DNA of 37,084 nt from Catajapyx aquilonaris (lineage: Eukaryota), in the NCBI GenBank assembly GCA_000934665.2, contig KZ538016.1, positions 124,001-161,084 of the forward strand, written 5' to 3'. The notes under the pieces are model-generated. The model searched no databases, was not told where the DNA came from, and was given only the letters and a program-made list of their open reading frames with translations. The position numbers and the translations under genes were made by a program. Below, one piece after another: positions 1-37,084 of the stretch. The stretch's first letter is position 1, and every line of letters begins with the position of its first letter.

Positions 1-176
1 GCCGGCGGAGGTGGAGGAGGTGGCGGAGGAGGCGGAGGTGGTGTCGGAGGGGACGGCGGGGCATGATGCCCGCCGGACACCTGGTTGTGGTGGTTCCCCT
101 TTGCCTTTTCGGTCACCACAGACGCCGCGCGACACTTCTCAGTCACCACCGTCACGCTCCAGTATCCCCAAGCCAT
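1..176 (-). CDS. Start of a proline-rich coding exon, MAWGYWSVTVVTEKCRAASVVTEKAKGNHHNQVSGGHHAPPSPPTPPPPPPPPPPPPP..., running off the window; alternative aPKC first exon or nested gene
   Basis: ATG at 176 in a strong accATGG context with an in-frame TGA at 188-186. Open to the window edge. The poly-Pro uses mixed CCT/CCG/CCA codons, and VVTEK is repeated with synonymous differences. Absent from the ORF track because there is no stop in the window. Confidence 0.65.
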   Translation of the reverse strand, partial: MAWGYWSVTVVTEKCRAASVVTEKAKGNHHNQVSGGHHAPPSPPTPPPPPPPPPPPPP

Positions 177-549
177 GGTCCTAGCTCACTTTTGACGCCC
201 AGTCTGTCACGTCCGACAGAATCGAAAGCCCTGCATCTGACAACAAGACATCGCTATAACCTAATCACCTGGCCCTGTTTAGCCCTGGACGAAACATTTT
301 CCGGATCATAACCGGCGGTAAGTGGGCAACGTAAAGTGGGACCGCAACGTAGAGGCTGCCAGAAAGGCAGGCAGGCAGTTGGCCTGGAGTTCAGCCAAAA
401 CGCAACCACCACCACTACCTCGGCCCCACCTTGAAAGAACATGCAGTCGATCACCGAGCTGGCTTTAATTGGCCGAATGGAGGCCCTTTTTGAGGGGCGG
501 TCACGAAACCTAAAAAGGAGGTTGGTAACGCGCCTGCACCGACAAACCG

Positions 550-660
550 CGCCTGACCCACGCAATCGCCCCTCGTTTTATATATACATACACATACACA
601 CACGCATTCACTTGCAAACACTGACGTCACCGGGGTCAGACCCAGTGTGAAATTTGCATG
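550..660 (-). promoter_or_regulatory. Candidate Pol II promoter: octamer (652-659), palindromic CRE TGACGTCA (622-629), TATAAAA (582-576), possible initiator near 554
   Basis: Exact motif matches in the order and spacing expected for minus-strand transcription. TCAG lies about 28 nt downstream of the TATA box, upstream of the Kozak ATG at 176. Confidence 0.6.
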
Positions 661-4297: not shown

Positions 4298-4305
4298 TGA
4301 CGTCA
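4298..4305. promoter_or_regulatory. Second full CRE palindrome TGACGTCA
   Basis: Exact 8-mer match; function not shown. Confidence 0.3.
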
Positions 4306-7300
4306 AGTAACCTGGTTGGAATGGGGAGAGAGAAAAAAAACTTCTCGTCACATGTCACAAGTCGTCTCTGTCCTAAGATCAAGACGATATGCATGAGAAG
4401 AAAAAATCAATTCAAATGCTTCGGGCCAATTTTGCGAGTCGTCGCCCGGAAATCCTCCAGAGATTTAGCCAGGTTGGGCATATCTCCTCTACAAATTCAC
4501 ATTATTTCAACGCCTCCTTCCAAAAATAAAAGACGGTCCCTGTACGACCGCATATATCGTCGTCAAAATAAGAATCCCCGGACAGCACATTTGCATTGTT
4601 CTGGGAATCGTGAGCCGCAGTAAGAGATTGCCTAGGGAATCATAACAAGTTCCGCGAACATCTTTGGCAGCCGCCTTCTTAAGCCGGCTTGCCAGGATTT
4701 TCCGCGACGTTTGTAATGGGCCCCTTCAACCATGATATGCACCGAGTGATGCCGTGAACTCTGCCAAATTCAGAGACGAGTGTCCTCGCATATGCACCTG
4801 AAGTGTGGGCAGGCACAATCTTCTCTTTCTCTAGGTGATCGATCCACACCGGTCAGCCCCCCAAAAAGTCGCAGTCAGCCCTGCGCAATTTGGTTGCTTC
4901 GTTTAGGCGCAAGAACCTATTAACTCGGTTAGCGTGACGTCGTTGCTCCGGCGAGCCAGACGCCCCACGTTTAGTGGAAATAGTCCTGCGGAAGAAAACT
5001 TGGTGAGGGCCCCCCTCCTCCCTAATTGTTCAACTAGTTACAGGGCCTTCGGGCGTCAGATTGGACCGATTTGGGGACGTGACAAAGGCAAAACCCCATT
5101 CCCTCACTCCCCAAGCTCCGACTGCCCTTTGTGGCCTCTGCTCTTCGCTCGCCCGACGCTTCTCAAGCCTTCTTCCAAAATCGGCTTACAAACTAACGAT
5201 GCGGGGACTCCGATGCTCAGCCTCGAATAATGATGAAGTTGGCCAACAAAAATCACGTTTTTCCGTCCGCTGAAATTAGCCCCCCACGGTGCGACAACAG
5301 GTTTGCGAATTCATTTCAGATGCTCCGAAACATCAACAGATTTGGGAATGCATTATAATAGTACGTTGCAAAATATTCAAATTAAAGTGAGCCTATATCT
5401 AACCCCCAGGAGTGTATACGTCTATACTACCACTCTGAGAGGTCCAATAGCATGTAGACCTGATGATCAATTGAACTCTCACCTAATTAAATTAACGCTG
5501 CGAGTCCTAATCAAGCAGACCTCTCTCGCTTTCTCAACTGTCATTGGCACGCACAAGCTTTAGACTTGTGAGTACTAGCAGTCATACCTGTACTGTACCC
5601 CTAGCAATTCAAACACGCCGCTCCACAACATGCTGCAAAATATTTCATGTATCGCTCAGGTAGCAAGGCGCTAACTCTTACAAACCGTTAGAATACCAAA
5701 CGCAGGTTAATTTCCTTGCATGCGCCAAATCAGTAGGCTCTATCTCCAATTTTGTTCGCTGTTCTGAATAGTCGAATAACTTGCACGCGACCTCTCCCTG
5801 CACCGTCCGAAAGCAATTAAACCCAGCTATTCAAGTGGAAATGGAAAGCACGAAGTCCCTAATCGCCGTCAACATGTTGACGTACAGATCCATCCCACTA
5901 TTAGCCTTTGAGAGGTTGGAAGACTCGAATTGAAAATCGCATTTGCGAACGGACAGGGGCATGCTGGATCCACTCACAAAGGTGTACTCGAGCGTACATG
6001 GATACGTCTCAGGGGGACCTTCAACCGGGATCTCCTTATCATAATGGCTGGAGAAGTAGAGCGGCGGATAGATCTTCTATTGGGCCTTGGGGGTCCCTGA
6101 CAGCATCCCTTCATCGGCAAAACCTTCTCCTTAAGATCAGAAGAAGCTAGTGCTCCTCAGAATCCAGGGAGGTCAAATCGATTTGAGCACAGCCTCTGAC
6201 TAAACGCCCGCAGTCATTCGACGTATAGTTTTTGTACAGATCGCATTGTCAACTCGGATGCATACGAAGCTTGTAGAGGAAATGGCGCCAATTTTATGAC
6301 AAGGTGCAAAGGCGTTGTAATCCGAAACTGGGGGAGTTCTCGAGTTGCAAAAAGTCTGCGACTGACTGTTTACAGGCCCGGCACAGGAAACGATCTGGAG
6401 AGCTCTCAGGGCGCATCAGAAAATTGGTTTTCGAAGGTGAGCACTTCGGCTGCGGCCGTTACAACGTCGGTTGAGGGCAAGGCTATCTTTATGCCCGCCT
6501 ATTTAACGTGCATTTAGCTTCCCGAAGAGGTTTTCTCGGAACGTTGCATAGTGTCTTGTTTGCGGAGCTGGCCAAAATTTCCAGGCCAACCGGTCAAGAC
6601 CACTTACAAAGTATTCGCGTTTGCTCCAGTTCCCTACAGAGCACGGAATCGTCTGTAATTCTACGTGAAAGTATTGCTAATGAAAAACACATGAGAACGT
6701 ATCAATAATTCACATTGCTTGTAATCAAGAACAGTGGCAAGAGGGCTCCGTGGCGGTTTTGCTGGGCGGAATTCAAAAACCCCAAGAGATTCAGAGGCTC
6801 ATTTTAAACATTTGAAATCGTGATAGGCCTCGTACATCTAAATAATGAAAAATAGTACCTACCACTCAGCAATAAAAAGATATCGGGCACAACAAATTAA
6901 GTTAGACAAAATTCGCCATGTAAATCGACTGCATTTTGCGAATAACGCTAAATTAGGTTAAAGTGAAACACTGAAACTCCCTGATTGATACCGACGGTGA
7001 TGAGATTTAAAAATTTTTCCATGTGGAAGTTTTAAAATTGTAGCACATAGGACTATCTATTTTTCATTTGTTGGTGGGAACACTCGCCCTACATAACCTA
7101 ATTATACAGTGAAAACATCACGATTTCATTTAAATATGTAGAATGAAGCATTCAATGTTTTGGTTTCATGAATAAAGATAATTCTCATGAAATATCTGAA
7201 TTTTGCCTGTAGGCTGGGTGGCAAATGTTACATATTACACGAAATGTTAAATTGTTACTAAAATTACATCTATGTACCTAGGGGTAAAAATGTCAGCGAC

Positions 7301-25600: not shown

Positions 25601-28600
25601 GTCCACCATACAAGCGCAATAAATCGTACAGTACAGTGCCACATATACTAGATATTTCTCCAAATTGCAGTTTTGATAACAACATACTTATGCAGTCGTT
25701 ACTGCATTGTATACCTTTTATTCTCATGCTCGAAATAAAGCCGTGTTATCGCCAAGTCTTGCGTTGCTATCTTTTCCATATCATTATGTAGTCATAGAGT
25801 ACAACAGGCTATAGCTTACTACGGAGGTGGAGAATATTTTTGCAATTTGTCGCGCATGCTTTGCGTGCTCGTAACTTTGATTTATGTGTGCGAATGGCGT
25901 AATTTTTAAAGCCATCGCAGGCCATGATCCACCTCCGTATATGCGTACACCACAGGCTGCACAGTGTTGTGTGTGGTGTATACCTTCATGGAGATAAAAG
26001 CGCTGTTGTCTGGGGGGGGGGGGAGGGATGTTTTTGCACACTTGGTCCAGCCAAATTTTCAAGGTGGGCGAACTCGCACGTTTACACATGTGCAACGGTG
26101 CGGTATTTGAATCTACAACTGCACTACACCGCAAAAATAAAAATAATACTGGGTCTCGCCTATTTTTCCCCTTAAAAAAGCGGGTTAAACCAAACAATCC
26201 CACCGTGCTTCTTTAGCCTACAGTTTTTCACTGTCAACAAATTTTTTCCACAGCAGTATGTTTTAAGCTCTTATCCTTCTGTATGCCGATAGACAAGCCC
26301 AGCAGGATTCAAAACCTTGAACTGCTCTACTCCCATGGGAAGCTTCACACTGATGACTCTCTGATCTCCGCAGGCATACGTGATAGAAATGCATTCTCCT
26401 GCTGCTCGAGTATACTGCAAGGACTGTGTAGCTCTATTCCTCCTTTCTATTCGACTTGCTTCATAATAGACCATTTTGAGAAATGAATGCAGGAGAGTCT
26501 CAGCGTGCCTGCCTACATTAAACCTCTTAGCAACTTCCTAATGCCTATTTCGGCTACATGCACTGGCACCGCCAACACAATCCACTTTGATGCCTAAACA
26601 GGACGTTAAACTTGATGGATAAGCTTTCCGGTCCGGATTTCATCCTCCATCCCGAGTGCCTTCAATGACCACTCGAAACTTCCGTGAACAAAAGGGCGGG
26701 GATCCTCCATGGCTATTGTTGCAACAAGACTCCTTTAATGTGCCTCTGGACGCTAGAGGTAAAGCCCAGTACAAGTCAATGCTTTCAACAACCAGAGGAA
26801 GGTATAAGCTACACTGTGTTCAAAACTACCACTAATATAACTGCAATGTTATGCACATTGTGCATAGAGGTAGCAAAACAATAATTTCCACCATGTAACG
26901 CAATAACAGAGTGCAGATCTAATTTGTTTCCAGAGTTAACTATGGGGGTCACCTAGTTTGGTGACCCAACTAGGAAAGCTAGACTTCATTTGTGTGGATG
27001 TCATAAATTACTATCAAAGGCACCTTCCAAAGTACTCAGCCAGGGTGAAATCCTCTTGAAGCAAATGAAATAATACATTTTAATACAGTCACACTGTCTC
27101 TATTATAACCACATAATAGTTTGTGCATGGAATTATGGTGCAGGCATGCAAGACCTGCCCTCATTACTGTTGAATATTCATGCAACATAGTTTCGGTGAT
27201 GTTGAACTATTCATAATTTGCATATTTGAAAGTACAGCCCTAGGCCTCCTCCTGCCTCTAGCATGGACACACTGACTAGCATGATGATTCAATTTCATCA
27301 ACTTTCCAATCTTAATTTTATTCCTAATAAAACTCTTACTAGGTACCAACTAATGTGCTTATTTGGCACTGTGCACGGGATTTTATGCTCAGTTTTTAGC
27401 CCTGGAGGTTTGTATACTGCTAAGCTGTTACAACCCACAGCAAGGGTCATTAAATATTAAATGGGTAGTGGAAAGGCTTTATTAGCATGCTATGTCATCC
27501 CACAGGTTATTCCAGGTTTCCATAATTCCATGCACCAGTTAAGTTCAGTTACCATTTTCGTAAGCAAATAATATAATCAAATCAAATGTATTGTTACACA
27601 GTGTATTTCGACGAACATATAGACATGTAACTATAAGGCCTATATTATATACCTACAACATCCAAGTTCTTTAAACACGGTTTTTCTTCACCGAAAGAAA
27701 AAGGCTTGACATTTTTATTACCCCCCTGATGTGTGCCCAGAGTAATTTTTCCCCTGCTTGCATTCGCCATCCATTACTGCTGACCTTGGCCTTTTACACC
27801 TATAATTCGACACAGCTAACCGCCTCTGCTTCCTGTCGCACATATATCCTCATTTTGAGCTAATTTTCAGGCATGGAAACTGTATGTGCTAGGTAAATGC
27901 CTCCCTGAAATAGAGGCTCACCAGGAATGCAGCCCATAAATATGTTCCCTTCTACCTTTACATAATCAAACAACGTAGTCGTTTGACAAGACTTTTATCA
28001 AGCAAAACTGACTGAAATTACACACGCTCTAAATAAATCAACGAAAATAGCAACTGAAAATCATATGAGGAGACCCAGTAAATGAAAGTTACTGAAGTGT
28101 AAAGTTAAAATTCCAAGAAACCTGCTCCTGAAGGGAGCAAATTTGGAATCTCCTCCCCACAAAATGGATCTACATTACAGTTATTACACAGTTGACTGGC
28201 TCTCCCTCATTGCACTGACTTTCAGAGAAAGGACAAAGGCCCTCCAGCTACATGCCACTCTTGTAATGATGAAATATCATTAACATTAGCGTCATCCCAA
28301 AGTACCCTAGGCCACACTAATTAAGTCAACACGGTGAATTAAATTCTATCTTTAATGATGAATAAGTCATGAATGCTTTACAGTTTACAGTATATATGTC
28401 TTCCAGAATGACTTCAGAAAACATTAATTGAATTTCGAAGAATTCCGAGTATACCACAAGGACTCATAATTCCAGTTAAGTCATTATCGATTAAAAAAAT
28501 TCAACTGCAGACTTCAAAATACCCAAGTGGTGATTCCACAACATCTCCCACACTCCTTTGCTACGGCAACTTGCTCCATCCTAATTATCTCGCTGAATTT

Positions 28601-28749
28601 ATTTGTTGCAATAATTGTGACATGTTCTGTGTCCATTGATTCTGCCCAAACATTTATACTAAAGTCAACAATGCCAGACTTAAATTTTTATACCACTTTA
28701 AAAAATCAGCCCTATCAACCAATGACATGCAATCAAAACTTCCACTTAC

Positions 28750-28839
28750 CATGGATGGTGAGTTCCGAATCCTTGTTGAGCTCATACAAGCGAATGGCTT
28801 CCTCTAATTCCATTTGTGTAGTGATGGTACATGGATCAC
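28750..28839 (-). CDS. aPKC: aPKC coding exon 3 (PB1 domain: [30 protein letters not shown])
   Basis: Acceptor atcttcag|GT and donor G|gtaagt, 90 nt, phase 1 to phase 1. [21 protein letters not shown] is diagnostic of aPKC. Confidence 0.97.
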
Positions 28840-29851
28840 CTGAAGATTACAAATTGCCACAATGTTAGGTTGCTCCCTTGTACAATATTTTACCCAGTTA
28901 GCAACCTCATCATGCTAACCATTCAACATGCATTTAGACTGTTTCACTGTCTCTCACTGATGTAAATGTTTACAAGCCAGCATCCTCTTACACACGTTCC
29001 AGTCTAATACTGCACCCACAAGGTCATTTTCATGCCAAGTCATTAGCAAGCGCATTGGTAACAAGTAACTAGAACAAGTCCCGCGCTACGACAAACTCAG
29101 ATCACTCGATTGTTTACACATACACCTGTATTCTAAAAGCAGAGTCTAACATCAAATGAATGAAAAGCTTCAACATAAGGGGTTATCACAATAAAACTAT
29201 GACTTGTGACGTTTGAAATTCAACACTGAGTATATCTCAAGATCAGCATTACAAGAATAATACTTTTTAGTTAGAATAACCAGCACCAACCTTTATCAGA
29301 AGTCGATGCTATCCAAATCAGACATAATAATCATCAAATATGAAACATCAGTTTGACCACATAAACTTAACTTTAATCTCAATTTATCGTTCAAATGTGC
29401 ATGCCCTGATGCAGATGAGTTTAGCCACAATAAATACTCTTGTAAATATTCCGCACTGTGGCAGAAAACATGTCCTTCAACACACATGATCCACTTTCCA
29501 GCTTTTCTCCCTGCATCACATCAGACTGTGAGATTGCTTACTTTAAACGGAGTCACTGAAACAAGCTTTCTAATGATGTATAACATTATATTTTTGAACC
29601 ATTTTCCAGGGAATTATTTAGAGTCAAACACAGGGGTCAATATTTAAAAAATGGATAGTAGGTGCCTGGGTGCCCAAAGCGGAAATCTTCTCTCCAGACC
29701 CCTGTCCCTCTCTTCTACTACTTTCCGCCCTCCCATTTCCTATTTCATACCCATTCCAGTAACCATTCCTGCTGATTTGCTTTGCTTCTGGATGACCAAC
29801 CAAGATAATCATGGATAACAGGGTACCATAATGGATGTATACTGGTAAGTT

Positions 29852-30191
29852 GGGAGGCGGAGTGGTGCTGCGGTAACGCACGCGCCCACGGATGTTAAGG
29901 TCCCGGGTTCGATCCCAGCCCGGGGTTCCCCCCTTCATCTCGTGCAGAGTTGGGCCATCTCTGGCTGCTTCGTCTAGGGTGGAAATTTCCGCTAGACTAA
30001 TCCACCCGGTGGAGTTCACAAAATGACCAATATGCGACATTGCACTTGCACTTTGCACATCCCCTCCTACTTACCCCTGGAACAATTAACATATATGCAT
30101 TATATGGTTCCAAAAATAGTGGTAGTATTCCACTACCCTAAAAAGGGCCCAGGGCCTGAGAATGGGGTACTGTAAAAAAAGAAAAAAAAAG
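29852..30191 (+). mobile_element. Full-length tRNA-derived SINE (about 340 bp), antisense to aPKC in intron 2
   Basis: A-box-like TGGTGCTGCGG (29863-29873), B-box GGTTCGATCCC (29906-29916), A-rich tail (30174-30190), and a perfect 15-bp target-site duplication GTATACTGGTAAGTT at 29837-29851 and 30192-30206. Confidence 0.93.
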
Positions 30192-30929
30192 GTATACTGG
30201 TAAGTTATGTCAGATTTGGTCTCCAGGTGGACTGTGATCGTGTCAAGTTCGACATTACTAAGATCAAAATTCTAGCCTCCAACTCTAAACAGGGAACCAA
30301 TGCTAATGCTTTTTTTTTTACACTGGATAAATACATTTCAAAATGTTTCCATTGTTCACAACCGATTAGGATAGTGTTCCATACAGTCTTTCAATCACTA
30401 ATGCATTGCGCCTCACAGAAAAAAATCTGTAATGTCTTTTGGAAATGCTAAATGAATTGATGGTTCAATGTGTACATGTGGCTTGCAATTGCTACTTCAG
30501 CAAATATTTGTAAATCTGCCACCACTGCAAAAATTCTAAGCAGAAATGAGGTAATAGGAGGCAGGTTGAATAAAAACAAATCTAAGTTATTTAAAAATGT
30601 GCAATAATGTAACAATTTTTACCTCAAAATTGTTTTCAACTCAGTGGGTCATCCTGAGAAACATGTTGCTATTCCTGGGATTAGGGTCCCAGACTAAGAC
30701 AGAGTAGGGGGTGGGGGGATTAATAGCATCAGTCAAAAGCCAATTTCAGAAACATGTTTGAAGTTACTGCTTTCTGGACACAACATGGCAACACAGCAAA
30801 TATTAGCAAAAATATTACAATGAATCAGTGTAAGTGTGGTGTTAGGACTCTCAACACTTAAGCAATAAAATAACAATACTGACAACTAATTTAAGTTAGA
30901 ATCTGGAGATAAAATACAGAGCAGGCTAA

Positions 30930-31132
30930 AGCCACATTTACATGTGAGCGATTTGACGAGCGAAGTCTTCGCCGAGCGATAACATTGCTGAGTAACCGGA
31001 GTAACCAGTATTGTTTGAGGCAAAATAGATTGTTACTTCCACCTCAAACAATATTGGTTACTTGGGTTACTCAGCGATGTTATCACTCAGCGAAGACTTC
31101 ACTAGTCAAATTGCTCACACGTAAACGCAGTT
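30930..31132. mobile_element. Foldback MITE, PIF/Harbinger (Tourist)-like
   Basis: 91-bp inverted arms (30930-31020 and 31042-31132, 77/91 matches by hand) around a 21-bp spacer, flanked by TAA on both sides (30927-30929 and 31133-31135). Confidence 0.88.
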
Positions 31133-33546
31133 TAAAGCCTTTGCAACATTGCCTGGTACTGTACTGTTGACCATAATGAAGAACATCACTGTTTATTCTG
31201 CCCCATTCCATGCTCTACTTCCCTTATCCCATGCTATCCCAGGGGAAGGACAGTTTCAGCATGTTCCAGTGAGAGCAAATGTTACACCTTTCCTTTCTCT
31301 GTTTACTGGTGTGTCTGAGCATGACCCAATGTTTTCTCAAACTCTTGTGTATATGAAGTGAAACTTTAAGCCTATATTTATAGCTTTCAATTATACACTT
31401 GCTGAATGAATTACTGTCAAGTGGAAAGTGTAGCTATGGTACATGAAAATGAAACAAGTTTACAAATAAATGTGAAAAGCAAAGAGGTCATATTCAGACA
31501 CACAAACTAGCAGGATCTAACTTTTAATATGGTGGAAATATGCACAACTAACTAGATCTCTTTAAAAACACTCATACAAAAACATGAAATTGGCTGAAAT
31601 TGCCCTTGACTTCCAAACACTTGGAAAAACTAGGGCACAGGCTAATTTTTGGGCACCCTAGGGCAGTATCACTCGTGCTGTCACTCAGTATGCTGAACAG
31701 TCTGTGCCTCTGTACTCCATGGTGTCACAGATACCAGCTGACAGTGTGCATGATTATTTTATCAACAAGTTCTTTTAGCCTCTTTAATCATTGAGCAGGT
31801 TTGTTGCTCCAACAGCAATTATTTGCAGTGTAATGCACTCAATTTTTCTTATTGGCACTTGCAGTGTTGTCCCATTGTGGCTGAGACTAGAGAGGGCTAA
31901 CTTTGAAGATGTTTCTGCAAATGAATTGTAACTGGTGTTCTCAGTCAACCCTATAGTCTGAGAGGGACTAGCTTAGCCTGCAAGAGTTGCAAGTTATTAA
32001 CAGATATGAACTGTAGATGAAAATGAATGACTACAGTGTGATATTATTTCCAAAGGGATATGATAATGCAAGTCAAATACCATAACATTCCATCACCAGT
32101 CAGAAGAAAAGAAGAAAGAGAAGGTCACTTGAAAACTGGGGAAGAGCTGTGAAAAACTATCCACCTACCATTTGGCAGAGAACATTTTATACACCATATA
32201 GCTTCACCCGGCTTCGCCTTTTCTATATTTTAAATATTTTACAGCGGCAGTTGATCTCAGACCTCTCTCCCTGGCATGCAGATGCACCCATTTACCAGGA
32301 AGGTGTATTTCTATGCCCTTAACTTAATTTCATTGAACCTGTTCAACTCAATGACTCCAATGCTACCTAGAGTAGTGCATCTTCAACTTTACTCCAAGTA
32401 TGGACAGACAAGAACAGCTGTACAGAGCAATAAGGGCTGACCCAGCCAATAAGGCCCAACAGCCCAAGTCCCCCAGCTTTTCTTTATCAAAGCAAAGTAA
32501 TACGTGAATGATATCCTTACTGAATCAAGTCCAGCAATTAAAGAAATACAAATAGATTATATCCAAAGATGGCCATCCCAATCCATGCAGCAAGTGCACC
32601 AAAGCCATGGCCAGATTGGAATAGCTGTCACACGTTATTCTTTAGGAAGCATTGAACCATTATCTTCGTGAAATCAGTCTTCAACCAGTGGCCCATGCAC
32701 CCCTGGGGGTCCTCAGGTCTTCAATGACAAGTTCCTTGAAGATATTAGACTGTATTTTCCTTCAACTAATAAATATTCTAAGGTTATTAGGGCCAAATCC
32801 TTCTTGAATCCATTGCACTCATATTATATCAGAATGATAATTTACTGCCAGAAAACAGCAGCACATGATCAAAAAAAAACGAACAAATAGACAGGATAAC
32901 CAAAAGTTTATAATATTTTTTTGCATAGCAGAAGAAATTACTGTTTCAGGTTCGCACAATGTTATGCAGAAGAAAAAGCATTAAATGGAAGGAAACATAA
33001 TACGGATTTGCTAGAACTAAGTGTTCCTCTAGTGGATTAACAGCCCGGATATTAATCCCGGATAAGAAGATCAAAACTGTGATGGATACTAATTGGCACT
33101 ATAAATGTGGCTCTATATTGATTTATGCATTAAAACTCTGCACAAAAGTGGTGGGAGGAGGGATGAGGTCTTCTGCCAATCTGCATAGAGAGAGAAGCTT
33201 TTCACTGATCAGTACCAATAATGTGTGGTACGTTTTTCAAAGTTGCTCCGCTTACATGCTACAGTACTTCATTAACACTGCTCATCATTACTCATTAAAT
33301 GCAAACAAGGGGGAGAAAACAACTTGACCATATCTCTGTTTTGGCCAAAGGAAGATTTTGTATCAATATTAAATTAGTTAATATCCTGAATGCTTATTAG
33401 CTGCTTCAGTCAAGGTACAAACAAAAAAAGCCTTGTGTTAATGCCATTAAGAGTAATTAATTTTACTCGTAAGTTCTTGGTACTTTCAACCCAAACCTGT
33501 GAAATGCATCAAGAAAACCTCACTCAATGCCATCAATTTAACTCAC

Positions 33547-33668
33547 CTTCTTCATCTACCCACTTCATGGTGAACTCCTGCTCAGAAGAAAACTGGCAGA
33601 TGTCACGTATCTCCTGGCGTAAATCATCTACTGTGACATGAGCATCTATGTAGGTAATCATAATCTCG
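33547..33668 (-). CDS. aPKC: aPKC coding exon 2 (PB1 domain: EIMITYIDAHVTVDDLRQEIRDICQFSSEQEFTMKWVDEEG)
   Basis: Acceptor ttgtatttcag|C after a 62-nt intron (33669-33730) and donor G|gtgagt. The exon is 122 nt and in frame with both neighbours. FTMKWVDEEG is the start of the aPKC OPCA motif. Confidence 0.97.
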
Positions 33669-33730
33669 CTGAAATACAAAATGACAAATTACAATGCATT
33701 CAGATATAGCCATTAGTCAGGAAAACTCAC

Positions 33731-33795
33731 CCATTGTAGGCAGTCTTGACACGTATTTCCGGCATTTGGCTTTCGTTTCCAACTGGTGTTGGCAT
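33731..33795 (-). CDS. aPKC: Atypical protein kinase C (PKC-iota/zeta), first coding exon (MPTPVGNESQMPEIRVKTAYNG)
   Basis: ATG at 33795 in context gccaaaATG. RVKTAYNG matches the aPKC PB1 first strand with its conserved Lys. Ends at a GG|gtgagt donor, phase 2, 65 nt. Confidence 0.95.
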
Positions 33796-33930
33796 TTTGG
33801 CAATAGAGCGAATGAAATTTTTACTAGTCCTTAACCTACGTCTATAAAATCTATGCACTACGAGGAGGAGTCGCCAGATGCAATCCAATGTGATGTCTTT
33901 CTTTAGCAACCTGGGATAAGTTTGGAAGAT
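33796..33930 (-). other. aPKC: Probable 5' leader portion of the first aPKC coding exon
   Basis: Acceptor ccttttcag| at 33931/33930, with an alternative ttatcccag| at 33911/33910. This implies an upstream exon further to the right. Confidence 0.55.
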
Positions 33931-34306
33931 CTGAAAAGGTCAAAGTACAGTTATTAATGACTCAACAACCTCTATCTTAACATAGTTATTCTCCTTCACA
34001 CTAAGGTCTCAGATATAATAGCATTGTACAGTACAGCTAGTCCTTGACTTTTGAAACGTGCTGTAATACCATGCCCACATAACTGCAGAGGATAAATTAC
34101 TAACAAAATTCTATAAATGTTGCAGCACAGTGCTGCAATTAGGACATATATAACCATATTCAGTCCTTTAAGTGTCCTCAGTGCATAACATGGACACAAG
34201 GTTACCTAGATTAAAAATTAATCACAACAGTTAGGAGCTAATTCTTCAGCAAAATATTTATAAATGCTATATGTCGTATACATAGTCTACTTTTTTAGTA
34301 CAAATA

Positions 34307-34597
34307 TTGTAGAACCCTAATCATCTGACTCCTCCGATTGTCTGATCCCGCCCCAACAATAGATGTTTTTCTCATCAGAATCTGCACTGTACTATGCTTT
34401 TGTTATGTACTGCTTTTGTTAAATTTTAAATACAGTGCAGTAGAGTGTGTATGTAAAAGATATATACGTCCCTATTTCTTACAATACCATAATTTTTTGC
34501 TGTGCTCCATTAAAGTTTGCTCCTAAGATTACCTGCCCTTTTCTGTGTTCCGACCATGCCCTGGTCCCTTGGGTGACGGATAATCGGTGTTCTACTG
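34307..34597. mobile_element. Degenerate pogo/Tigger (Tc1/mariner superfamily)-like MITE
   Basis: The right end reads CAGTAGAACACCGATTATCCG on the minus strand and the left end reads TTGTAGAACCCTAATCATCTG (degenerate inverted repeat). TA flanks both ends (34305-34306 and 34598-34599). Confidence 0.65.
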
Positions 34598-36853: not shown

Positions 36854-37084
36854 CAGCGTCGGATTTCCCATTAGGCACAGTAGGCACTGGCCTAGGGGCG
36901 GCCGCCCTGTAGGGGCGGCCGCGGTTGCAATAAATAATATTTCTCAAATACAATAATAAAAAATGATGGCGAGATCACAAAGAAAAGCAACATGTTGAGA
37001 GCTTGATTTGCCACTACATGCACAAAAGGTAATTGCCAAAGGGCGGCCGCGGCCGCCCTCTGGGCGGCCATAACTTTCTATCTG
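36854..37084. mobile_element. One end of a non-autonomous hAT-like DNA transposon (runs off the window)
   Basis: Starts CAGCGTCGGATTTCCCATTAGGCACAGTAGGCACTGGCCTAGGGGC, resembling hAT (Tip100-type) MITE termini, with repeated subterminal GGGCGGCCGC motifs. The other end and TSD are not visible. Confidence 0.55.

What the first reader, a model, noticed from the sequence alone, without database searches (positions are those of the whole stretch)
1..660. CRE/TATA internal promoter plus proline-rich first exon inside the aPKC gene: a possible PKM-zeta-like, PB1-less isoform
Seen: on the aPKC strand, 28 kb downstream of the last PB1 exon, lie an octamer (652-659), a full CRE (622-629), a TATA box (582-576), a leader of about 375 nt, and an accATGG start (176) preceded by an in-frame stop and opening a poly-Pro ORF. 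Established: mammalian PKM-zeta is transcribed from an internal, CRE-containing promoter in PRKCZ and lacks the N-terminal regulatory region. The PB1 domain mediates Par6/p62 binding. Inference: this invertebrate locus may independently make a CREB-inducible aPKC in which PB1 is replaced by a poly-Pro arm (a possible SH3/WW/EVH1/profilin ligand). Unlike PKM-zeta, it could keep the pseudosubstrate and C1 region. The alternative is a nested same-strand gene.
Basis: partly seen in the sequence, partly recalled or inferred. Interest (0 to 1): 0.85.

Follow-up and report, generated by a model that had tools for sequence, protein, structure and literature searches.

The report
Conserved PB1-less aPKC alternative first exon
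The left edge of this window holds the start of an alternative first exon of the polarity kinase aPKC that many insect genome annotations already list; it swaps the Par6-binding PB1 domain for a proline-rich tail, so the exon is real, but it is an annotated isoform whose function is unstudied, not a new PKM-zeta-like invention.

Summary

The ORF at ATG 176 begins MAWGYWS. Ten annotated insect aPKC isoforms begin with the same seven residues. They replace PB1 with a low-complexity arm, Pro-rich in several, join the common VFP exon, and keep the pseudosubstrate, C1 and kinase (Pfam on 4 of the 10). A profile of their first 30 residues picks this ORF out of 2140 six-frame ORFs (E 3.9e-6, next 0.13).

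FlyBase merged a once "embedded gene" into aPKC as alternative exons (PMC4528329).

The exon reading is therefore supported. "Independent invention" and "PKM-zeta-like" are not.

The CRE/TATA/octamer cluster is rare by chance (1 of 1000 shuffles, post hoc). It is absent upstream of the exon in 10 of 10 insect loci, so CREB control remains an untested, species-level idea.

This scan held no earlier finding on it.

The parts
1..176 (-). 5' part of the alternative first coding exon of aPKC (the 'MAWGYWS' exon). ATG at 176-174; 58 codons visible; the Pro-rich run starts at codon 40; the ORF continues left of the window.
   Evidence: Translation. Profile of 10 insect N-termini hits this ORF at E 3.9e-6, next best 0.13, among 2140 six-frame ORFs. 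All 10 insect arms have their best tblastn hit at 176. BLASTP against P0008 gives E 2e-4. Pro codons are mixed (CCG 7, CCT 7, CCA 3), so this is not a pure triplet repeat.
186..188 (-). In-frame TGA four codons upstream of ATG 176. It fixes the start of the ORF.
177..554 (-). Putative 378-nt leader, if transcription starts at the Inr-like site. It holds five upstream ATGs (442, 309, 297, 251, 236), an acceptor-like tcttgttgtcag near 238 and a donor-like AAAA|GTGAGC at 190/189.
   Evidence: The start site is inferred, not shown.
552..556 (-). Inr-like TCAGG (A at 554), 28 nt downstream of the first T of the TATA box.
   Evidence: Sequence reading only.
576..582 (-). TATAAAA box.
622..629 (.). 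Full palindromic CRE, TGACGTCA. Read on the minus strand it runs into TCAGT, which is itself an Inr-like word.
652..659 (-). Octamer ATGCAAAT.
28750..28839 (-). aPKC coding exon 3, the last PB1 exon ([30 protein letters not shown]). It ends with a phase-1 donor, CAT G|GTAAGT.
33547..33668 (-). aPKC coding exon 2 (PB1: EIMITYIDAHVTVDDLRQEIRDICQFSSEQEFTMKWVDEE), with a phase-1 donor.
33731..33795 (-). aPKC coding exon 1 of the PB1 form (MPTPVGNESQMPEIRVKTAYN), followed by a 62-nt intron.

Best explanation
Window 1-176 (minus strand) is the beginning of a conserved alternative first coding exon of the aPKC gene.

Shown:
- It sits on the aPKC strand, 28 kb downstream of the three PB1 exons.
- It starts with MAWGYWS followed by conservative matches.
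- It runs into a Pro-rich stretch.
- The same start opens annotated aPKC isoforms in ten insects. In all ten the arm joins the common VFP exon; in the four I scanned with Pfam there is no PB1.

Inferred by homology:
- In this organism the exon continues left of the window for a few hundred bases.
- It ends in a phase-1 donor and splices to the VFP exon.
- The product cannot form the PB1-PB1 pair with Par6 (or p62-type partners), but it still carries the pseudosubstrate/polybasic segment, the C1 domain, the kinase and the C-terminal tail.
- The product is therefore a regulated kinase with a different N-terminal docking or targeting arm, not a constitutively active PKM.

Inferred from motifs only:
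- An internal promoter just upstream drives it (octamer 659, CRE 629, TATA 582, Inr-like A at 554).
- This gives a 378-nt leader loaded with uORFs.
- I put this promoter assignment at about 0.4 and the exon identity at about 0.85.
For: Exon identity:
- P0008 (H. halys aPKC isoform X1) and 9 of the 11 hits start with MAWGYWSAT(T/S)V.DRGRSPRR and join ...YA(T/S)|VFPN.
- Pfam on 4 of the 10 finds C1, Pkinase and Pkinase_C but no PB1. The PB1 isoform P0002 does score PB1.
- A profile of the 10 N-termini finds ORF 3-185(-) at E 3.9e-6 among 2140 window ORFs; the next best is 0.13.
- In tblastn, 10 of 10 arms hit 176 best.

Position and phase:
- The PB1 exons are on the same strand, and exon 3 ends in phase 1.
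- In 8 of 9 insect-like metagenome loci whose arm end is visible, the arm is one exon of 441 or 843 nt ending G|GT in phase 1.

Transcript evidence elsewhere:
- FlyBase merged an embedded gene into aPKC as alternative exons (aPKC-RG, -RJ) on RNA-seq junctions (PMC4528329 passage).
- A published fly qRT-PCR primer (aPKC_N8F) encodes EIEPAY, the end of the dipteran arm (PMC9136304 key resources; matched to P0021 and P0023).

Promoter:
- The CRE-TATA-octamer cluster occurs in 1 of 1000 shuffles.
- It lies 400-480 nt upstream of the homology-fixed ATG.
Against: - Only the first 14 residues align well. The DRGRSPRR block is invariant in the 10 insect proteins and the 10 loci but reads EKCRAASV here.
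- The exon's donor, the later conserved motifs and the VFP exon lie outside the window, so the splice is not seen.
- No transcript data exist for this organism.
- The annotated insect isoforms are mostly automatic models, and I could not inspect the evidence behind them.
- Promoter: 0 of 10 insect loci have a full CRE or octamer within up to 1500 nt upstream (less where the contig ends sooner).
- 11-mer sharing between the upstream regions is at the level of shuffled controls (8, 3 and 8 shared words against null means near 5, maxima 10-12).
- The five upstream ATGs fit poorly with a simple scanned leader.
- The motif set was picked post hoc.
Confidence: 0.78

Rival explanations
1. The exon is real, but the CRE/TATA/octamer cluster is not its promoter. 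Transcription would start elsewhere: at an upstream non-coding exon spliced in near 238, at the TCAGT that overlaps the CRE, or close to the ATG. The cluster would then be a chance grouping or a distal element.
For: - No full CRE or octamer upstream of the exon in 10 of 10 insect-like loci.
- No shared upstream words above the null level.
- Five upstream ATGs in the proposed leader.
- An acceptor-like tcttgttgtcag near 238.
- A second full CRE at 4298 with no TATA near it shows that CREs occur here without promoters.
Against: - The three-motif cluster is seen in 1 of 1000 shuffles.
- The TATA-to-Inr-like spacing of 28 nt is textbook.
- The insect loci are from distant lineages, where promoter turnover is expected.
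Confidence: 0.4
2. An independent gene nested in the aPKC intron on the same strand, which encodes a Pro-rich protein and never joins aPKC exons.
For: - FlyBase once annotated an embedded gene in aPKC (PMC4528329).
- One ant model (P0022, 727 aa, no Pfam domain) carries MAWGYWS without a kinase.
Against: - Ten annotated isoforms join the arm to the VFP exon.
- The arm ends in a phase-1 donor matching the aPKC exon phase in 8 of 9 loci.
- FlyBase merged the embedded gene on junction evidence.
Confidence: 0.05
3. A decayed or chance ORF: a GC-rich, low-complexity stretch that happens to be open and no longer makes protein in this lineage.
For: - All frames are open across 1-300 on both strands.
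- DRGRSPRR is not kept.
- No hits for the peptide in three database searches.
Against: - An exact MAWGYWS at an ATG in good context with an upstream in-frame stop, found specifically by the profile.
- Seven following residues change conservatively.
- Mixed Pro codons.
- The negative searches are explained by databases that keep only cluster representatives: P0008 sits in a cluster whose representative is the PB1 form P0002.
Confidence: 0.05

Closest known systems
Annotated insect aPKC isoforms that start MAWGYWS. Examples: H. halys isoform X1 (XP_066905622.1), Lycorma X2, Nilaparvata X3, Zophobas X1, Diabrotica X1, Periplaneta X2, Teleopsis X2, Temnothorax nylanderi X1. Probably also D. melanogaster aPKC-RG/-RJ, which is inferred.
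   Same: - Same first seven residues, then conservative changes.
- A Pro-rich or low-complexity arm follows.
- Same strand, and the same place after the PB1 exons (shown here only for the window; inferred for the insects from their protein models).
- The homologues keep the pseudosubstrate, C1 and kinase and lack PB1 (Pfam on 4 of 10).
   Different: - The window lacks the invariant DRGRSPRR block.
- Its Pro run is longer and purer.
- The rest of the arm and the splice are unseen.
- The insect upstream regions lack the CRE/octamer.
Vertebrate PKM-zeta, made from the internal promoter of PRKCZ.
   Same: - A second promoter inside a large intron of an aPKC gene.
- A product without PB1.
- CRE sites are reported in the PKM-zeta promoter (PMC6539039 section 1.4; PMC3517905 passages).
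   Different: - PKM-zeta starts at a hinge methionine and lacks the pseudosubstrate and C1, so it is constitutively active.
- The arthropod isoform keeps both and adds a long arm.
- Invertebrate aPKC is reported to lack the PKM-zeta start (PMC3517905).
Sea urchin short aPKC (Pl-aPKC-1 / Sp-aPKC).
   Same: An alternative 5' end gives an aPKC with C1 and kinase but no PB1 (PMC3113769 passages).
   Different: - The urchin form is shorter than the PB1 form, not longer. From the passages read, no long Pro-rich arm is described.
- That paper states that all other known aPKCs, insects included, contain PB1. The insect isoforms listed above show that statement is out of date.

Membership tests
Arthropod aPKC 'MAWGYWS' alternative N-terminal isoform | Initiator Met followed by AWGYWS. 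| tested here: met
   E 3.9e-6; 10 of 10 best hits at 176.
Arthropod aPKC 'MAWGYWS' alternative N-terminal isoform | Lies on the aPKC strand, downstream of the PB1 exons and upstream of the VFP exon. | tested here: inconclusive
   It is downstream of the PB1 exons on the same strand. The VFP exon is not in the window.
Arthropod aPKC 'MAWGYWS' alternative N-terminal isoform | DRGRSPRR block at residues 13-20, invariant in 10 proteins and 10 loci. | tested here: not met
   The window reads EKCRAASV there. I take this as lineage divergence, but it lowers certainty.
Arthropod aPKC 'MAWGYWS' alternative N-terminal isoform | The arm is a single exon ending ...YA(T/S) G|GT (phase 1), joined to the VFP exon. 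| not testable with these tools
   The end of the exon is left of the window and no genome is held. It is seen in 8 of 9 insect-like loci.
Arthropod aPKC 'MAWGYWS' alternative N-terminal isoform | The product lacks PB1 and keeps pseudosubstrate, C1 and kinase. | not testable with these tools
   Shown for the homologues only: Pfam on 4 of 10 and the alignment of the H. halys isoforms.
PKM-zeta-type product of an internal aPKC promoter | The product lacks the whole regulatory region and starts in the hinge. | tested here: not met
   The homologous isoforms keep SIYRRGARRWRKL and C1.
PKM-zeta-type product of an internal aPKC promoter | A CRE-bearing internal promoter. | tested here: inconclusive
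   A full CRE with TATA is present here, but activity is untested. The motif is absent in 10 of 10 insect loci.

The most novel reading that the evidence does not exclude
The MAWGYWS arm is an old arthropod module that gives aPKC a Par6-independent address. In this lineage its internal promoter has acquired a working CRE/TATA core, so that neuronal activity or cAMP raises a PB1-less aPKC. That would be a convergent counterpart of the CRE-bearing PKM-zeta promoter, and a possible lead to the unexplained origin of atypical PKM in insects.
Probability: 0.1. Interest if true: 0.65.

Novelty: new member of a known kind. Interest (0 to 1): 0.33.

Why it matters
aPKC is usually treated as an obligate partner of Par6 through its PB1 domain. 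A conserved isoform that drops PB1 but keeps autoinhibition implies a second mode of aPKC control in arthropods that does not rely on Par6.

My five literature searches on this point turned up only two traces:
- a FlyBase annotation remark;
- a qRT-PCR primer.

None returned a functional study.

For this window the practical gain is a correct gene model. The ORF belongs to aPKC, and the next exon should be sought left of the window with a phase-1 join.

Tried and rejected
**Searches with the window peptide that found nothing**
- The search for homologous proteins, residues 1-40, longer proteins: none.
- The search of protein representatives, 43 aa: 0 hits.
- The search for related loci in metagenome contigs: 591 pattern matches, none confirmed.
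- ESM Atlas: no usable hit.

These blanks are weak evidence. The databases keep only cluster representatives, and P0008 sits in a cluster whose representative is the PB1 form P0002.

**Other negative or uninformative results**
- Pfam on the 100 window ORFs of at least 75 aa, out of 798 ORFs of at least 30 aa: 0 families. No transposon or other gene was detected in the intron.
- The repeat finder: no direct repeats of 40 nt or more, so the region is not a repeated element within the window.
- AlphaFold2 on the 10-isoform alignment: mean pLDDT 36, and even the kinase domain was poor, so it says nothing about the arm.
- tblastn of the six short alternative N-termini of H. halys against the window: noise only.
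- Supplement of PMC12608923 searched for MAWGYW and AWGYWS: 0 occurrences in the one file held, which may be cut.
- Earlier scan notes: none relevant.
- The organism was not identified. The best PB1 match is H. halys at 75% identity over exon 2.

Full report
**Observation.** On the minus strand the window reads, in order:
- ATGCAAAT at 659-652.
- TGACGTCA at 629-622.
- TATAAAA at 582-576.
- An Inr-like TCAGG with its A at 554.
- A 378-nt stretch.
- An in-frame TGA at 188-186.
- gaccATGG with the ATG at 176.

The ORF is MAWGYWSVTVVTEKCRAASVVTEKAKGNHHNQVSGGHHAPPSPPTPPPPPPPPPPPPP and runs off the left edge.

**Context.** No genome is held for this window, and it looks eukaryotic. aPKC coding exons lie on the minus strand:
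- 33795-33731: MPTPVGNESQMPEIRVKTAYN, followed by a 62-nt intron.
- 33668-33547.
- 28839-28750, ending CAT G|GTAAGT in phase 1.

tblastn with a full insect aPKC (P0002) finds only these PB1 exons and nothing of C1 or the kinase. The intron after PB1 is therefore longer than 28.7 kb, and the finding lies inside it, 28.1 kb from the last PB1 exon. None of the 100 ORFs of 75 aa or more matches a Pfam family, and the window has no long direct repeats.

**Chance.** Counts against dinucleotide shuffles:
- Full CRE: 2 in the window, 0.33 expected.
- Octamer: 8, 3.8 expected.
- TATA-like words: 20, 13.6 expected.
- A CRE followed within 80 nt by TATA appears somewhere in 30 of 1000 shuffles.
- With an octamer within 80 nt upstream as well: 1 of 1000 shuffles.

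The motif set was chosen after looking, so this is suggestive only.

**What the ORF is.** Direct searches with the peptide found nothing. The PB1 exon search returned one protein, H. halys aPKC isoform X4 (P0002, 75% identity). Listing its 90% cluster and aligning the members gave the key result. Isoform X1 (P0008, 608 aa) starts MAWGYWSASSVQDRGRS..., runs through a Pro-rich arm of 117 residues, and joins VFPNAPTAPG..SIYRRGARRWRKL, with no PB1. This also explains the blank searches: the libraries hold cluster representatives, here the PB1 form.

Searching with residues 1-125 of P0008 gave 11 hits:
- Nine start MAWGYWSAT(T/S)V.DRGRSPRR and join ...YA(T/S)|VFPN: Lycorma, Nilaparvata, Diaphorina, Bemisia, Zophobas, Diabrotica, Periplaneta, Teleopsis and Temnothorax nylanderi. 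That these span five insect orders is from my own knowledge.
- Two carry the motif internally, in what look like mis-joined or kinase-less models (P0023, P0022).

Pfam on four of the ten isoforms shows C1, Pkinase and Pkinase_C and no PB1, while P0002 scores PB1.

**Is the window's ORF the same exon?**
- A profile of the first 30 residues of the ten insect proteins, run with filters off against all 2140 six-frame ORFs of 10 aa or more, gives ORF 3-185(-) at E 3.9e-6; the next best is 0.13.
- All ten arms have their best tblastn hit at 176 (E 3e-4 to 0.12).
- BLASTP of P0001 against P0008 gives E 2e-4.
- After the seven identical residues, VTVVTEK aligns to ATTVSDR with conservative changes.
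- The invariant DRGRSPRR is not kept.
- A Pro-rich stretch follows at about the same distance as in Nilaparvata, Periplaneta and Diaphorina.
- The Pro run uses mixed codons (CCG 7, CCT 7, CCA 3), which speaks for selection on the protein and against a pure triplet repeat.

**Exon structure in relatives.** A degenerate pattern for MAWGYWSAT.V found 10 metagenome loci (L001-L010). They fall into three insect-like groups:
- Ant-like: L001-L004 and L009.
- Cockroach- or termite-like: L005-L007 and L010.
- L008 alone.

In the four loci of the second group the arm is one 441-nt exon from the ATG to ...ACA G|GTAC. In four ant-like loci it is one 843-nt exon ending ...TGG G|GTAGGT. L008 has no GT at that point, and L001 ends too early to tell.

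**Literature.**
- FlyBase reports that embedded genes proved to be alternative exons of aPKC (aPKC-RG, -RJ), mostly from RNA-seq junctions (PMC4528329, one passage).
- A fly study lists a primer, aPKC_N8F, that encodes EIEPAY, the end of the dipteran arm (PMC9136304, key resources and legends). I could not see its figure.
- That these fly transcripts are the MAWGYWS form is my inference.
- Reviews state that invertebrate aPKC lacks the PKM-zeta start, that Aplysia makes PKM by cleavage, and that the fly mechanism is unknown (PMC3517905 passages; PMC6539039 sections 1.4 and 2.2).
- Sea urchins make a PB1-less aPKC from an alternative 5' end (PMC3113769 passages).
- Searches returned no functional study of the MAWGYWS isoform. 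The library misses most subscription journals.

**Promoter.**
- The cluster sits 400-480 nt upstream of a start codon that is now fixed by homology, which makes a promoter reading reasonable.
- The TATA-to-Inr-like spacing of 28 nt is standard.
- Against it: none of the 10 insect-like loci has a full CRE or an octamer within up to 1500 nt upstream.
- 11-mer sharing with the window's upstream region is at null level.
- The leader is rich in upstream ATGs.
- A second full CRE at 4298 has no TATA nearby.
- CREB control is therefore an open, species-level hypothesis.

**Mechanism.** The most likely mechanism is an internal promoter that yields a transcript starting with this exon. The transcript is spliced in phase 1 to the VFP exon. 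The protein lacks the PB1 surface for Par6 but retains the pseudosubstrate, C1 and kinase, so it should be autoinhibited and released by other inputs. The conserved N-terminal motif and the Pro-rich arm would then serve as docking or targeting elements. Only the exon homology and its position are shown; the splice, the product and the promoter are inferred.

**Verdict.** The exon is real and orthologous to an isoform already annotated in many insects. It is not a PKM analogue and not an independent invention. Its function is unstudied as far as I could find.

Noticed in passing
window 1-37084, boundary near 26000: CpG observed/expected is about 0.7-1.1 from 1 to 26000. It falls to 0.1-0.55 from 26000 to 34500, where the PB1 exons lie. 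The pattern looks like germline methylation confined to the 5' part of the gene body.
   Followed up: no
window 4298-4305 and 4589-4596: A second full CRE (TGACGTCA), and a second minus-strand octamer 290 nt upstream of it. No TATA box is near. This may be another regulatory site in the intron, or chance.
   Followed up: partly
P0003-P0013 (H. halys aPKC cluster): Five other short alternative N-termini are joined to the same VFP exon, and one isoform starts at MPCQGEDRSIYRRG. The aPKC intron after PB1 seems to host many first exons in insects. None of the short ones is recognisable in the window.
   Followed up: partly
window 30937-31125: An 84-nt inverted repeat, 88% complementary, with a 21-nt spacer, in the intron between PB1 exons 2 and 3. 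It may be a MITE-like hairpin.
   Followed up: no
window 36890-37084: GC-rich words containing GCGGCCGC recur on the minus strand around a short AT-rich stretch at the right edge. They may be ends of a repeat element.
   Followed up: no
L001-L010: Public metagenome contigs carry insect-like host DNA with the whole MAWGYWS exon and up to 2 kb on each side. This is useful for comparing this locus when no eukaryotic genomes are on hand.
   Followed up: yes
window 11099: A single N in the sequence.
   Followed up: no
window 190-189 and about 238: A donor-like AAAA|GTGAGC lies just upstream of ATG 176, and an acceptor-like tcttgttgtcag lies near 238. The leader may be spliced in ways that include or skip the start codon.
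   Followed up: no
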